In this document: positions 6,034 through 13,034 of the stretch, piece by piece
Numbering within the stretch: the first letter of the stretch is position 1
Layout: each line of letters opens with the position of its first letter
Notes under the pieces: model-generated
Databases searched by the model: none
Told to the model about the DNA's origin: nothing
What the model saw: the letters and a program-made list of their open reading frames with translations, nothing else
Assembly: GCF_016026235.1 (NCBI RefSeq)
Contig: NZ_CP065614.1
DNA length: 64,000 nt
Source: Escherichia coli
GTDB taxonomy: Bacteria > Pseudomonadota > Gammaproteobacteria > Enterobacterales > Enterobacteriaceae
Direction: 5' to 3' (one strand)
Translations under genes and position numbers: made by a program

Positions 6034-7281
6034 TTAAAATTTATAATGCTCCTTACTAAGACCGTATTTTTTCATTCTGAGATAGAGTTTTTTCCGCGGG
6101 ATTTGTAAATATTCAGCAACCTCATTGATACGCCCCTGATGGATATTAAGCGCCTCTGTGATTATCTGTCGCTCAGCGTCCTCCACTCGTCTGTCAAGCG
6201 GTGTCGGGGTTCCGACGTGCATCAACGGATTTGCTGTTTCTGCCAGCGGTAATACTCCTACAGTAAACAGTTCTGCTGCATTGGCCAGCTCTCGCACATT
6301 ATTTGGCCACATGCGGCGCATCATCTCTTTGAGCATCTCTTTTCCCACTTCCGGAACAGGATGGTTAAGTCGTTGACATGCTTTACAAAGGTAATGGCGA
6401 AACAGTGGTTCAATATCATCGGGGCGTTGAGCTAATGGCAGGCAAGCGATTTGTGTCATTGCAAAGCAGTAATAGAGCTCCGCGATGATATGGTTGCTGG
6501 CGACCAGCTCGACCAGCGAGGTGTCTCCAATACCAATCAGGCGAAAAGGTCTGTGTTCCTGGCTTTGTAACTGAACCAGATGGTACTGCTGTTCACGCGT
6601 CAGGTGTTCAGGATGGCTGAGCACTAATGTTCCCCCCTGAGCCAGCGCAATGAAATCATTAAGCTGTAGTGCATTGTCTGGTGTCAGCTCGCGGTAGACA
6701 AATTCGCCTTGTGCATTACGTCCAAATTGGTGCAGATAACGTGCACCGGTCATCCGTCCTGTGCCTGGGGCCCCGTAGAGCCAGACGGCAATATCTGTTT
6801 CAGACAACTGCTGTAAACGTCGCCGATACTGATTTATCCATTCACTTCTCCCTATCAACTCCACCTGCAACGTCTGTTGGCAATACTGACGACGCGCAAT
6901 GATTGATTGACGCTGGCGTAGCGCCTCTTCAACCAGAGAAAGCAATTTGCCGGGATCAACCGGTTTTTGCAAAAAATCCCACGCGCCTTTTTTTACCGCA
7001 TCAACTGCCATTGGCACGTCGCCGTGCCCGGTGATAAGCAGAATGGGGATCTGTTGATCATCCTGGTGGAATAACATCATCAAATCGATACCAGAGCAGC
7101 CAGGCATACACACATCACTTAGCACAATACCTGGCCAGTCTGGTTGTATCCACGCCTGCGCCTCAAAAGGATTGTTACAGGCAAAAACCCGATAGCCTGA
7201 CTGTTCAAGTAATTGTGTGTAGGCGTCCAGCACGTCAGCATCATCATCAATCAGCAGAATCGAATATTCACTACTTAGCAT
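6034..7281 (-). CDS. pgtA: PgtA-like NtrC-family response regulator (receiver + AAA+ + C-terminal HTH)
   Basis: Contains ILLIDDD...SDVCMPG (receiver), GAPGTGR, and a C-terminal Fis-type HTH (ITEALNIHQGRINEVAEYLQIPRKKLYLRMKK). The start is taken at MLSSEY. An alternative ATG lies at 7290. Confidence 0.8.
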   Translation of the reverse strand: MLSSEYSILLIDDDADVLDAYTQLLEQSGYRVFACNNPFEAQAWIQPDWPGIVLSDVCMPGCSGIDLMMLFHQDDQQIPILLITGHGDVPMAVDAVKKGAWDFLQKPVDPGKLLSLVEEALRQRQSIIARRQYCQQTLQVELIGRSEWINQYRRRLQQLSETDIAVWLYGAPGTGRMTGARYLHQFGRNAQGEFVYRELTPDNALQLNDFIALAQGGTLVLSHPEHLTREQQYHLVQLQSQEHRPFRLIGIGDTSLVELVASNHIIAELYYCFAMTQIACLPLAQRPDDIEPLFRHYLCKACQRLNHPVPEVGKEMLKEMMRRMWPNNVRELANAAELFTVGVLPLAETANPLMHVGTPTPLDRRVEDAERQIITEALNIHQGRINEVAEYLQIPRKKLYLRMKKYGLSKEHYKF

Positions 7282-11669: not shown

Positions 11670-13034
11670 ATGTTATCAATATTTAAAACGGTGCAAGCGG
11701 CGGATAGTGTTCCGGCGGAGAAAATTCAGGTGACATATCATCGCTATCGTATGCAAGCGTTACTTAGCGTATTTCTGGGGTATCTTGCATACTATATCGT
11801 GCGTAATAATTTCACCTTATCGACGCCTTATCTTAAAGAGCAATTAGATCTCAGCGCCACACAAATTGGCGTACTGAGTAGCTGTATGCTTATCGCCTAT
11901 GGTATCAGCAAAGGAGTGATGAGTAGCCTTGCCGATAAAGCCAGTCCGAAAGTCTTTATGGCGTGTGGGCTGGTGTTATGTGCCATCGTTAACGTTGGCC
12001 TGGGATTCAGCACCGCATTCTGGATTTTTGCGGCATTGGTTATTCTGAATGGTCTTTTCCAGGGAATGGGCGTTGGTCCTTCTTTCATCACTATTGCTAA
12101 CTGGTTCCCTCGCCGGGAGCGTGGTCGGGTTGGTGCTTTCTGGAATATCTCTCATAACGTCGGTGGTGGTATTGTTGCACCGATTGTTGGTGCCGCTTTT
12201 GCCCTACTCGGCAGCGAGCACTGGCAAAGTGCGAGCTATATCGTTCCGGCCTGCGTGGCCATCGTTTTTGCGGTAATTGTGCTAATTCTCGGTAAAGGTT
12301 CCCCACGTCAGGAAGGTCTGCCCTCGCTGGAAGAGATGATGCCGGAAGAAAAAGTCGTCCTGAATACCCGACAGACGGTAAAAGCACCAGAAAACATGAG
12401 CGCCTTTCAGATTTTCTGCACTTATGTATTACGCAACAAAAATGCCTGGTATGTCTCACTGGTTGACGTATTTGTATACATGGTGCGCTTCGGGATGATT
12501 AGCTGGTTGCCTATTTATCTGCTGACGGTGAAACATTTTTCTAAAGAACAAATGAGCGTCGCGTTTTTATTTTTTGAATGGGCCGCAATCCCTTCCACGC
12601 TACTTGCCGGTTGGTTGTCAGACAAACTGTTTAAAGGGCGTCGTATGCCATTGGCGATGATTTGTATGGCGCTGATTTTCATTTGCCTGATTGGCTACTG
12701 GAAAAGTGAATCGCTGTTTATGGTGACAATTTTTGCTGCCATTGTTGGTTGTCTGATTTACGTTCCACAATTTCTGGCTTCTGTTCAGACTATGGAGATC
12801 GTGCCCAGCTTTGCTGTTGGCTCCGCGGTAGGTTTACGTGGTTTTATGAGCTATATCTTCGGTGCATCTCTGGGCACCAGCCTGTTTGGTATTATGGTCG
12901 ATCATATTGGCTGGCATGGCGGATTTTATCTTCTTGGCTGCGGTATTATTTGTTGCATCATTTTTTGCTGGTTATCACATCGTGGTGCAATTGAACTTGA
13001 ACGTCACAGAGCCGCATATATAAAAGAACACTGA
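11670..13034 (+). CDS. pgtP: Organophosphate:Pi antiporter (MFS, UhpT/GlpT/PgtP family), PgtP-like
   Basis: 454 aa with 12 predicted hydrophobic spans. Divergent from pgtCBA. GGTGAAG lies 4 nt upstream of the ATG. Confidence 0.8.
   Translation: MLSIFKTVQAADSVPAEKIQVTYHRYRMQALLSVFLGYLAYYIVRNNFTLSTPYLKEQLDLSATQIGVLSSCMLIAYGISKGVMSSLADKASPKVFMACGLVLCAIVNVGLGFSTAFWIFAALVILNGLFQGMGVGPSFITIANWFPRRERGRVGAFWNISHNVGGGIVAPIVGAAFALLGSEHWQSASYIVPACVAIVFAVIVLILGKGSPRQEGLPSLEEMMPEEKVVLNTRQTVKAPENMSAFQIFCTYVLRNKNAWYVSLVDVFVYMVRFGMISWLPIYLLTVKHFSKEQMSVAFLFFEWAAIPSTLLAGWLSDKLFKGRRMPLAMICMALIFICLIGYWKSESLFMVTIFAAIVGCLIYVPQFLASVQTMEIVPSFAVGSAVGLRGFMSYIFGASLGTSLFGIMVDHIGWHGGFYLLGCGIICCIIFCWLSHRGAIELERHRAAYIKEH

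What the first reader, a model, noticed from the sequence alone, without database searches (positions are those of the whole stretch)
6034..13034. Complete pgt phosphoglycerate-transport regulon on a virulence plasmid, silenced by a clean IS1 hit in pgtC
Seen:
- pgtA, pgtB and pgtP have full-length ORFs.
- pgtC is one continuous reading frame once IS1 (10170-10937) and one copy of its 9-bp duplication CGGAGGTTG are removed. The insertion is therefore simple and probably recent.

Established knowledge: in Salmonella, PgtP imports 2-/3-phosphoglycerate and PEP under control of PgtABC. Cytosolic pathogens exploit host phosphorylated carbon compounds.

Inference: this is either pathoadaptive loss or neutral decay of a transporter that would import glycolytic intermediates from the host cytosol. 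It would be reversible by precise excision.
Basis: partly seen in the sequence, partly recalled or inferred. Interest (0 to 1): 0.5.

Follow-up and report, generated by a model that had tools for sequence, protein, structure and literature searches.

The report
IS1-disrupted pgt operon on EIEC plasmid
An invasion plasmid of enteroinvasive E. coli carries the known four-gene system for sensing and importing phosphoglycerate, and in this lineage an IS1 element has recently split the sensor gene pgtC, an ordinary and reversible gene knock-out.

Summary
A 768-bp intact IS1 lies at 10170-10937, flanked by the 9-bp duplication CGGAGGTTG. It splits pgtC after codon 129. Removing IS1 and one repeat copy gives a gapless match to uninterrupted alleles on other EIEC invasion plasmids.

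PgtA, PgtB and PgtP are full length. They are identical to those of a plasmid with an intact operon, pass the NCBIfam equivalog cut-offs, and show no hidden damage at conserved positions.

The module (6026-13132) is the E. coli pheV-island type of pgtPCBA. It sits between IS remnants on an F-type EIEC pINV. No Shigella pINV in PLSDB has it.

The IS1 allele is not a laboratory event. Both junctions occur in several independent draft assemblies, some labelled E. coli O124. It is probably recent: an uninterrupted allele of the same haplotype differs by 1 base in 6713.

Two other pINVs have independent IS hits in pgtA, and most keep all four genes intact.

Silencing of pgtP is inferred from the Salmonella model and was not tested. 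Neutral IS-driven decay is the more likely reading; pathoadaptive loss cannot be excluded. The finding is a real but ordinary instance of a known system.

The parts
6034..7281 (-). pgtA, an NtrC-type response regulator of 415 aa.
   Evidence: NCBIfam NF047793 scores 728 bits against a cut-off of 650. The protein is identical to WP_012449360.1 as annotated on NZ_CP065612.1 and on the VL40 pINV. It keeps E141, G173 and H223.
7271..9280 (-). pgtB, a sensor histidine kinase of 669 aa. It overlaps pgtA by 11 nt and pgtC by 4 nt.
   Evidence: NCBIfam NF047794 scores 1069 bits against a cut-off of 1000. The protein is identical to that of NZ_CP065612.1.
9277..10169 (-). 3' fragment of pgtC (about codons 127/130 to 423), left without a start codon or signal peptide.
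   Evidence: It is identical to the partial protein P0040 found at contig ends in draft assemblies.
10161..10169 (.). Target-site duplication, copy 1 (CGGAGGTTG).
10170..10937 (-). IS1, 768 bp and intact. insA lies at 10607-10882 and insB at 10185-10688, with an A6C frameshift site. It is transcribed in the same direction as pgtC.
   Evidence: Thousands of records annotate the matching sequence as IS1 family transposase.
10938..10946 (.). Target-site duplication, copy 2 (CGGAGGTTG).
10938..11325 (-). 5' fragment of pgtC (codons 1-129, including the signal peptide). It reads into IS1 and ends after one more codon, giving a 130-aa stub.
   Evidence: The exact 130-aa product (P0163) is present on 7-9 public contigs.
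11326..11669 (.). Divergent pgtC-pgtP control region. It contains the inverted repeat TGTGTCAATTGTGACACA at 11561-11578.
   Evidence: No differences from the other pINV alleles in this region. The repeat is conserved in 47 of 73 pgt loci of other genera. Its role as an operator is inferred.
11670..13034 (+). pgtP, an MFS organophosphate:phosphate antiporter of 454 aa.
   Evidence: NCBIfam NF047787 scores 884 bits against a cut-off of 750. The protein is identical to WP_000948760.1, which is annotated on six pINVs.
6026..13132 (.). Extent of the pgt module shared with chromosomal E. coli island copies and colinear with Salmonella.
   Evidence: 97.5-98.7% identity to the NC101 and EcPF14 chromosomes and about 75% to S. 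enterica subsp. diarizonae, with sharp ends.
4423..5864 (.). Left flank: an IS3-family (IS600-like) transposase ORF at 4423-5262 and a truncated IS66 TnpB remnant at 5622-5864.
   Evidence: Pfam rve/rve_3 and TnpB_IS66. Annotation of related pINVs. The draft contig breaks at 5274.
13184..14383 (+). Right flank: a degraded, frameshifted IS3-family element.
   Evidence: Pfam HTH_Tnp_1 and rve. Related pINVs annotate it as 'IS3 family transposase, frameshifted'.

Best explanation
What it is (shown): window 6026-13132 is a pgtP<>pgtC-pgtB-pgtA module of the type carried on E. coli pheV genomic islands. It sits between IS remnants on a conjugative F-type invasion plasmid (pINV) of enteroinvasive E. 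coli.

How the system works (from the Salmonella model, not tested here): the exported, solute-binding-protein-like PgtC senses external 2-/3-phosphoglycerate or PEP. It activates the membrane kinase PgtB, which phosphorylates PgtA. PgtA then switches on the divergent pgtP gene, which encodes the organophosphate:phosphate antiporter.

What happened in this lineage:
- Shown: an intact IS1 inserted after codon 129 of pgtC and made a 9-bp duplication. The product is a 130-residue stub. The remaining 294 codons have no start codon or export signal.
- Inferred: because pgtC, pgtB and pgtA overlap and read in one direction, the IS1 is also likely to be polar on pgtB and pgtA.
- Predicted: pgtP, although intact, can no longer be induced, so plasmid-encoded uptake of 3PG, 2PG and PEP is lost.

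Timing and cause: the insertion is the most recent step on its haplotype and is polymorphic among circulating isolates (shown). Most likely it is ordinary IS-mediated decay of a dispensable accessory module on an IS-rich plasmid (inferred). It could be reverted by precise excision between the 9-bp repeats.
For: Structure:
- IS1 coordinates, inverted repeats, insA/insB and the duplication.

Gene identity:
- NCBIfam equivalogs for PgtA, PgtB and PgtP.
- PgtC homologues carry SBP_bac_11/6 domains and PgtC names.
- Colinear with Salmonella diarizonae.

Origin:
- 460 of 5426 complete E. coli genomes hold the cluster, almost all on the chromosome.
- pgtABCP is described as GI-pheV cargo (PMC11537424).

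Plasmid context:
- Matches to ipaH, virF and senB regions of EIEC and Shigella pINVs.

The other three genes look sound:
- Identical to the alleles of an intact operon.
- PgtA keeps G173, the residue whose change kills S. Typhi PgtA (PMC11077982).
- No window-specific deviation at columns conserved in at least 95% of 67-70 homologues.

Not a laboratory event:
- The left junction is implied by a 4894-bp contig ending 2 bp from IS1, seen in 8 samples.
- The right junction is read 28-77 bp into IS1 in contigs from GCA_001907545.1, GCA_002466675.1, SRR1118464 and SRR11606891.

Recent:
- The allele series G29/L313 -> R29/L313 -> R29/F313 -> R29/F313::IS1 all exists in public data.

Neutral decay:
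- All four genes are intact on 6 of the fetched pINV-type plasmids: CFSAN029787, RMDEC332, VL46, VL40, FDAARGOS_945 and FDAARGOS_941. RMDEC364 gave the same hit statistics but was not fetched.
- Two other plasmids have independent IS hits, pgtA::IS2 in VL7S7 and pgtA::IS600 in 201908119.
- IS elements also sit in the neighbouring module in the same plasmids.

Regulatory model:
- PMC11077982 and PMC9306846.
Against: - No expression or growth data exist, so silencing is inferred.
- The primary papers on pgtC mutants (Jiang 1988, Niu 1995) were not readable here. The requirement for PgtC rests on later summaries and on the 1995 title.
- Read-through from IS1, which has the same orientation, or an internal promoter could keep pgtB and pgtA expressed. 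PgtC-independent inputs (VrpA/CRP in Salmonella, PMC7873081) could give basal pgtP expression.
- The host chromosome is unseen and could carry a second pgt copy.
- Regulator-targeted loss of pgt recurs in host-restricted Salmonella and Klebsiella. That pattern is also what a selected loss would look like.
Confidence: 0.75

Rival explanations
1. Pathoadaptive loss. Uptake of host 3PG/PEP, or expression of the system, is costly in the cytosolic invasive lifestyle. Knock-outs of the pgt regulators are therefore selected in EIEC, in parallel with typhoidal Salmonella.
For: - Three independent IS hits among the pINVs surveyed all fall in regulator genes and leave pgtP intact: pgtC::IS1 here, pgtA::IS2 in VL7S7 and pgtA::IS600 in 201908119.
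- S. Typhi (PgtA G173D) and S. Paratyphi A (pgtB degraded) follow the same pattern of a dead regulator with an intact transporter.
- S. Dublin carries pgtC stop codons, and K. pneumoniae ozaenae and rhinoscleromatis have lost the operon.
- No Shigella pINV has pgt.
- Among pINV alleles the regulators show 10 nonsynonymous against 3 synonymous polymorphic codons, 7:2 of them in pgtC.
Against: - Most complete pINVs keep all four genes intact.
- The regulators make up 77% of the coding target, so three of three hits there is expected 45% of the time by chance.
- An empty-site sister allele still circulates.
- The polymorphism counts are small, and excess nonsynonymous polymorphism within a population is usual.
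- Divergence between pINV and chromosomal copies shows purifying selection, with dN/dS of 0.09-0.47.
- In Salmonella, loss of pgtP lowers intracellular replication (PMC7873081). That result argues against a general cost.
Confidence: 0.2
2. The operon is not really silenced. pgtB and pgtA are still transcribed, from IS1 read-through or an internal promoter, and pgtP keeps useful basal or PgtC-independent expression. Alternatively a chromosomal pgt copy complements the plasmid.
For: - IS1 lies in the same orientation as pgtCBA.
- Sigma-70-like matches exist inside IS1 and in the pgtC 3' part, though such matches are weak evidence.
- PgtC-independent constitutive pgtB mutants exist in Salmonella (title of Niu 1995, cited).
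- 8.5% of complete E. coli genomes carry a chromosomal pgt.
Against: - The window's PgtB is identical to that of a plasmid with intact pgtC. Its only derived change, S519L, lies at a variable column.
- IS1 insertions are classically strongly polar (general knowledge).
- The current model makes PgtC the sensor required for induction.
Confidence: 0.12
3. The insertion is an assembly artefact or a change that arose in one laboratory stock.
For: No complete plasmid in PLSDB and none of 5426 complete E. coli genomes carries the pgtC::IS1 junction.
Against: Both junctions are present at 100% identity in independent NCBI and Logan assemblies from different accessions. The 9-bp duplication and the intact IS1 ends are the signature of real transposition.
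Confidence: 0.02

Closest known systems
Salmonella enterica pgtP-pgtCBA phosphoglycerate transport system
   Same: - Same four genes in the same divergent order.
- About 75% nucleotide identity, colinear across the whole module, with S. enterica subsp. diarizonae.
- PgtA, PgtB and PgtP pass the NCBIfam equivalog cut-offs.
- PgtA keeps E141, G173 and H223 as in functional S. Typhimurium.
   Different: - Plasmid-borne here and interrupted by IS1.
- All E. coli PgtA copies have Ala171 where 66 of 67 homologues from other genera, the Salmonella locus among them, have Glu.
- Function in E. coli was not tested here.
E. coli chromosomal pgtABCP on pheV genomic islands (e.g. 536, NC101)
   Same: 97.5-98.7% nucleotide identity over window 6026-13132. 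The cluster is described as GI-pheV cargo (PMC11537424).
   Different: - Here the module has been moved to a pINV between IS66 and IS3-family remnants.
- The pINV alleles share a few substitutions, for example PgtC H100Y and T81M and PgtA P205L.
- pgtC is split by IS1.
Intact pgt modules on other EIEC pINVs (pCFSAN029787_01 and the FDAARGOS_945, VL40, VL46 and RMDEC332 plasmids)
   Same: Same location and flanks, and 99.7-99.9% identity. PgtA, PgtB and PgtP are identical to those of FDAARGOS_945.
   Different: Those plasmids have the empty site. The window adds IS1 plus a 9-bp duplication and two earlier substitutions, PgtC G29R and L313F.
Regulator-level loss of 3PG uptake in host-restricted enterics (S. 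Typhi PgtA G173D, S. Paratyphi A pgtB, S. Dublin pgtC stop codons)
   Same: A regulatory gene is inactivated while pgtP stays intact.
   Different: - The mechanism here is an IS insertion, not a point mutation.
- It is polymorphic within the lineage rather than fixed in a serovar.
- The phenotype was not measured.
UhpABC-UhpT hexose-phosphate system
   Same: Same logic: an external organophosphate is sensed by an accessory sensor plus a kinase and response regulator, which induce a related MFS antiporter. PgtP hits UhpT and UhpC models below their cut-offs.
   Different: The accessory sensor there is a membrane UhpT paralogue (UhpC). Here it is a periplasmic solute-binding-type protein (PF13531/PF13343).

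Membership tests
PgtABC/PgtP phosphoglycerate transport regulon | PgtP-type MFS organophosphate:phosphate antiporter | tested here: met
   NF047787 equivalog scores 884 bits against a cut-off of 750, full length 1-448/451.
PgtABC/PgtP phosphoglycerate transport regulon | PgtB sensor histidine kinase and PgtA NtrC-type response regulator | tested here: met
   NF047794 scores 1069 against 1000 and NF047793 scores 728 against 650. Pfam HAMP/HisKA/HATPase_c and Response_reg/Sigma54_activ_2/HTH_8 on identical products.
PgtABC/PgtP phosphoglycerate transport regulon | PgtC, an exported solute-binding-protein-like co-sensor | tested here: met
   The repaired frame is 80-91% identical to proteins named PgtC and carries PF13531/PF13416/PF13343. 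An N-terminal hydrophobic signal-like segment is aligned with homologues. In the window itself the gene is split, so the protein is not made intact.
PgtABC/PgtP phosphoglycerate transport regulon | Gene order: pgtP divergent from pgtC-pgtB-pgtA, with overlapping regulator genes | tested here: met
   Colinear with the Salmonella diarizonae locus and with E. coli chromosomal loci. Overlaps of 4 and 11 nt.
PgtABC/PgtP phosphoglycerate transport regulon | Induction by external 2-PG/3-PG/PEP and transport of these compounds | not testable with these tools
   Needs growth and reporter assays. Known for Salmonella only (PMC11077982, PMC7873081).
IS1 | Element of about 768 bp with imperfect terminal inverted repeats of about 23 bp | tested here: met
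   768 bp. The ends GGTAATGCTGCCAACTTACTGAT and GGTAATGACTCCAACTTACTGAT match at 20 of 23 positions.
IS1 | insA and insB' frames joined by an A6C -1 frameshift site | tested here: met
   The 91-aa insA, AAAAAAC at element position 306, and an open insB frame.
IS1 | 9-bp target-site duplication | tested here: met
   CGGAGGTTG on both sides, with a single copy at the empty site in other plasmids.
pINV (Shigella/EIEC invasion plasmid) | Carries invasion-plasmid genes (ipaH, virF, senB/ospD3 region) | tested here: met
   Window 14000-38000 and 40000-64000 match annotated ipaH1.4/4.5/7.8, virF and senB regions of EIEC and Shigella pINVs at 99% or more. The mxi-spa-ipa entry region is not in this window and was not checked.

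The most novel reading that the evidence does not exclude
Plasmid-borne pgt is an EIEC-specific, early-stage trait that lets cytosolic bacteria feed on host 3PG/PEP. As lineages move towards a Shigella-like lifestyle it is being switched off repeatedly at the regulator level, by IS hits in pgtC or pgtA with pgtP spared. That would make pgt a convergently silenced ('anti-virulence-like') metabolic locus shared with typhoidal Salmonella, and one that precise IS1 excision can turn back on.
Probability: 0.15. Interest if true: 0.55.

Novelty: new member of a known kind. Interest (0 to 1): 0.27.

Why it matters
In Salmonella, uptake of host 3-phosphoglycerate through PgtP matters for replication in macrophages (PMC7873081). 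Host-restricted Salmonella and Klebsiella lineages have repeatedly lost the system (PMC11077982, PMC12403712, PMC12828178).

I found no paper in the searchable library that discusses a pgt module on some EIEC invasion plasmids, absent from every Shigella pINV in PLSDB. The module could contribute to the greater metabolic competence of EIEC.

Sister isolates that differ essentially only by the IS1 insertion offer a ready-made natural experiment. The insertion itself is routine IS-mediated gene disruption and teaches nothing new about mechanism.

Tried and rejected
- **Junction in complete records.** I searched for the pgtC::IS1 junction in 72,556 plasmids and 5426 complete E. coli genomes and found none. 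This briefly suggested a strain-specific event. Exact-protein look-ups then found both junctions in draft assemblies, which overturned that idea.\n- **Decay after insertion.** The only two window-unique substitutions in the 6.2-kb module are both nonsynonymous and both in pgtC. I rejected decay after the insertion as the explanation, because uninterrupted alleles with one or both changes exist and both sites are variable among homologues.\n- **Hidden inactivation of PgtA, PgtB or PgtP.** No window-specific change falls at a column conserved in at least 95% of homologues. The deviations found are shared with chromosomal E. coli alleles.\n- **PgtC H100Y.** It looked invariant-breaking in a 14-sequence alignment, but the column is only 60 of 68 His in the larger set, and the change is pINV-wide rather than specific to this allele.\n- **Error-rich plasmids.** CP091385.1 and CP046677.1 have many indels and sparse annotation, which looks like sequencing error. 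I did not use them to score gene integrity. The 1-bp indels in 899091 pgtP and 201908119 pgtC may likewise be errors.\n- **Primary papers.** The J Bacteriol papers on pgtC and pgtB genetics are not held.\n- **Isolate metadata.** Accession-based literature searches for the draft assemblies found nothing.\n- **Promoter and terminator scan.** It gave only weak consensus matches and did not decide the polarity question.
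Full report
**1. Observation**

The ORF map shows three full-length genes. These are 6034-7290 (minus strand, 418 aa), 7271-9280 (minus, 669 aa) and 11670-13034 (plus, 454 aa). Between them lie two broken minus-strand frames on either side of two small ORFs typical of IS1.

The sequence places IS1 at 10170-10937, a length of 768 bp. Its ends are GGTAATGACTCCAACTTACTGAT and, in reverse complement, GGTAATGCTGCCAACTTACTGAT. The direct repeat CGGAGGTTG lies at 10161-10169 and 10938-10946.

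The element has an intact 91-aa insA, the AAAAAAC frameshift site and an open insB frame. It is the only IS1 copy in the window and points the same way as pgtC.

Removing IS1 and one repeat gives one open frame of 423 codons. It starts at MTWITNRFF, window 11325; RefSeq annotators use the internal Met, giving 405 aa. In the window as it stands the product is residues 1-129, one Gly, then a stop inside the IS1 end.

**2. The empty site exists elsewhere**

The repaired stretch 5500-13500 aligns without any gap to plasmid NZ_CP065612.1 (FDAARGOS_945), with 7 mismatches in 7224 bp.

Exact-sequence look-ups found the uninterrupted protein with the window's own two private residues. These are R29 and F313 in 423-aa numbering. 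A Logan contig from SRR13627083 carries it and equals the repaired window 5702-13191, with 1 mismatch in 6713 bp and no gap.

The intermediates G29/L313 and R29/L313 also exist. The order of events is therefore G29R, then L313F, then IS1. The two private substitutions are not decay that followed the insertion, and the insertion is the youngest change.

**3. Not a laboratory event**

No complete plasmid in PLSDB and none of 5426 complete E. coli genomes holds the junction. Draft assemblies do.
- A 4894-bp contig (GCA_012807895.1, seen in 8 samples) equals window 5274-10167 at 100%. It stops 2 bp short of IS1.
- Its partial PgtC (P0040) carries several NCBI accessions, some labelled E. coli O124.
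- On the other side, contigs equal the window at 100% and run 28-77 bp into IS1. They come from GCA_001907545.1, GCA_002466675.1, SRR1118464 and SRR11606891.
- N-terminal and C-terminal partial proteins have neighbouring accession numbers from the same assemblies.

**4. What the genes are**

PgtA, PgtB and PgtP exceed the NCBIfam equivalog cut-offs: 728 against 650, 1069 against 1000 and 884 against 750.

PgtC has no equivalog model. It is 80-91% identical to proteins named PgtC in E. coli, Klebsiella and Citrobacter, and 80% identical to the S. enterica subsp. diarizonae locus. It carries the solute-binding-protein domains PF13531, PF13416 and PF13343.

The whole module is colinear with the S. 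enterica subsp. diarizonae locus at about 75% nucleotide identity.

PgtA has no GAFTGA motif, and no -24/-12 element is visible upstream of pgtP. It therefore looks like a sigma-54-independent NtrC-type activator; this is read from the sequence and is an inference.

A palindrome, TGTGTCAATTGTGACACA at 11561-11578, sits in the divergent control region. Versions of it (TGwGTCA-N4-TGACwCA) occur in 47 of 73 pgt loci from other genera at a similar position. The chance expectation is about 0.003 per locus. It is a candidate operator and it is intact here.

**5. Where the module comes from**

The cluster is present in 460 of 5426 complete E. coli genomes, almost always on the chromosome (465 places against 9 on plasmids), at 95-99% identity.

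Identity to the NC101 and EcPF14 chromosomes is 97.5-98.7%. It runs from window 6026 to 13132 and stops sharply there. A published analysis lists pgtABCP as cargo of pheV genomic islands such as that of strain 536 (PMC11537424).

In the window the module lies between IS remnants. On the left are an IS600-like element and a truncated IS66 TnpB. On the right is a frameshifted IS3-family element.

The rest of the window matches ipaH, virF and senB regions of EIEC and Shigella invasion plasmids. The closest plasmids are large conjugative IncFIA/FIC EIEC pINVs, including pCFSAN029787_01, the plasmid of E. coli strain CFSAN029787.

No Shigella plasmid in PLSDB matches pgt or the neighbouring LysR/M20/DUF3100 module.

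**6. Are the other three genes sound?**

- PgtA, PgtB and PgtP are identical to those of FDAARGOS_945, whose operon is intact.
- PgtA has E141, G173 and H223, the residues of functional S. Typhimurium PgtA. G173D is the change that silences the system in S. Typhi (PMC11077982).
- I extracted the four proteins from 67-70 loci of other genera. The window deviates from columns conserved in at least 95% of them at four PgtA and five PgtB positions, and at none in PgtC or PgtP. Every deviation is shared with chromosomal E. coli alleles.
- The pINV-specific and window-specific changes lie at variable columns.
- Divergence between pINV and chromosomal copies shows purifying selection, with dN/dS of 0.09-0.47.

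I found no evidence for hidden inactivation. One feature of the whole E. coli clade deserves a functional test: PgtA has Ala171 where 66 of 67 other genera have Glu, two residues from G173.

**7. Survey of pINVs**

- All four genes are intact in CFSAN029787, RMDEC332, VL46, VL40, FDAARGOS_945 and FDAARGOS_941. RMDEC364 gave the same hit statistics but was not fetched.
- VL7S7 has IS2 in pgtA with a 5-bp overlap.
- 201908119 has an IS600-sized insertion in pgtA and a 1-bp deletion in pgtC.
- 899091 has a 1-bp indel in pgtP that may be a sequencing error.
- Two UK plasmids are too error-rich to score.
- Some EIEC pINVs lack the module altogether.

There are therefore three independent IS hits, all in regulator genes. 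The regulators are 77% of the coding target, so this pattern is not significant.

**8. Mechanism and consequence**

In the current Salmonella model, PgtC senses 3PG and acts on PgtB. PgtB phosphorylates PgtA, and PgtA activates pgtP (PMC11077982; PMC9306846).

Here the sensor is reduced to a 130-aa stub. pgtC, pgtB and pgtA overlap by 4 and 11 nt and read in one direction. From general knowledge of IS1 polarity, the insertion should also lower pgtB and pgtA expression; this step is inferred.

The predicted result is an intact but uninducible pgtP.

None of this was measured. Residual expression or a chromosomal copy cannot be excluded.

**9. Adaptive loss or neutral decay?**

Points that favour selection:
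- The pattern of a dead regulator with an intact transporter recurs in S. Typhi and S. Paratyphi A.
- pgtC stop codons occur in S. Dublin, and four niche-restricted Klebsiella sub-lineages have lost the operon.
- Nonsynonymous polymorphism is in excess in the pINV regulators, 10 against 3.

Points that favour neutrality:
- Most pINVs are intact.
- An empty-site sister allele still circulates.
- The plasmid is crowded with IS elements, which also sit in the adjacent module.
- The counts are small.
- Loss of pgtP is harmful to Salmonella inside macrophages (PMC7873081).

I put neutral decay well ahead but not settled.

**10. Novelty**

The system, the IS element and the type of event are all known, and the genes are correctly annotated in public records. 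I found no paper linking pgt to EIEC or pINV.

This is a real, cleanly documented but ordinary instance. Its modest interest lies in the presence of pgt on EIEC pINVs and its absence from Shigella pINVs, and in natural isogenic pairs with and without the IS1.

Noticed in passing
window 11561-11578; loci L016-L087 about 260-500 bp upstream of pgtC: The inverted repeat TGTGTCAATTGTGACACA lies in the pgtP-pgtC control region. Versions of it (TGwGTCA-N4-TGACwCA) recur in 47 of 73 pgt loci from other genera. It is a candidate PgtA or CRP-like operator.
   Followed up: partly
window 6034-7281 (PgtA residue 171): All E. coli PgtA copies, plasmid and chromosomal, have Ala171 where 66 of 67 homologues from other genera have Glu. 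The site is two residues from the invariant Gly173, whose G173D change inactivates S. Typhi PgtA.
   Followed up: partly
window 9277-11325 (repaired pgtC) compared with L002, L003, L006, L009, L011, L012: Among pINV alleles pgtC holds 9 of the 14 polymorphic codons in the module, 7 of them nonsynonymous. All pINV alleles share H100Y at a column that is His in 60 of 68 homologues. This may reflect relaxed constraint on pgtC on the plasmid.
   Followed up: partly
L010 (VL7S7 pINV) 5349-6683; L001 (201908119 pINV) 3766-5022: Two other EIEC pINVs have independent disruptions: pgtA::IS2, and pgtA::IS600 together with a 1-bp deletion in pgtC.
   Followed up: yes
window 14942-18502: A neighbouring module encodes a TdcA-like LysR regulator, an M20 peptidase, a 153-aa protein and a DUF3100 membrane protein. 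It is confined to the same EIEC pINVs plus two other E. coli F plasmids and is absent from Shigella pINVs. Its function is unknown.
   Followed up: partly
L075, L076, L079, L082: A second, distant pgtC-like locus (52-54% identity) occurs in Escherichia ruysiae, E. whittamii, Escherichia sp. E1V33 and one E. coli assembly.
   Followed up: no
window 40000-64000: Several ipaH genes (1.4, 4.5 and 7.8 types) and a virF region lie among many IS elements. The arrangement differs from every complete plasmid in PLSDB; the best match covers 94% in 5 pieces.
   Followed up: no
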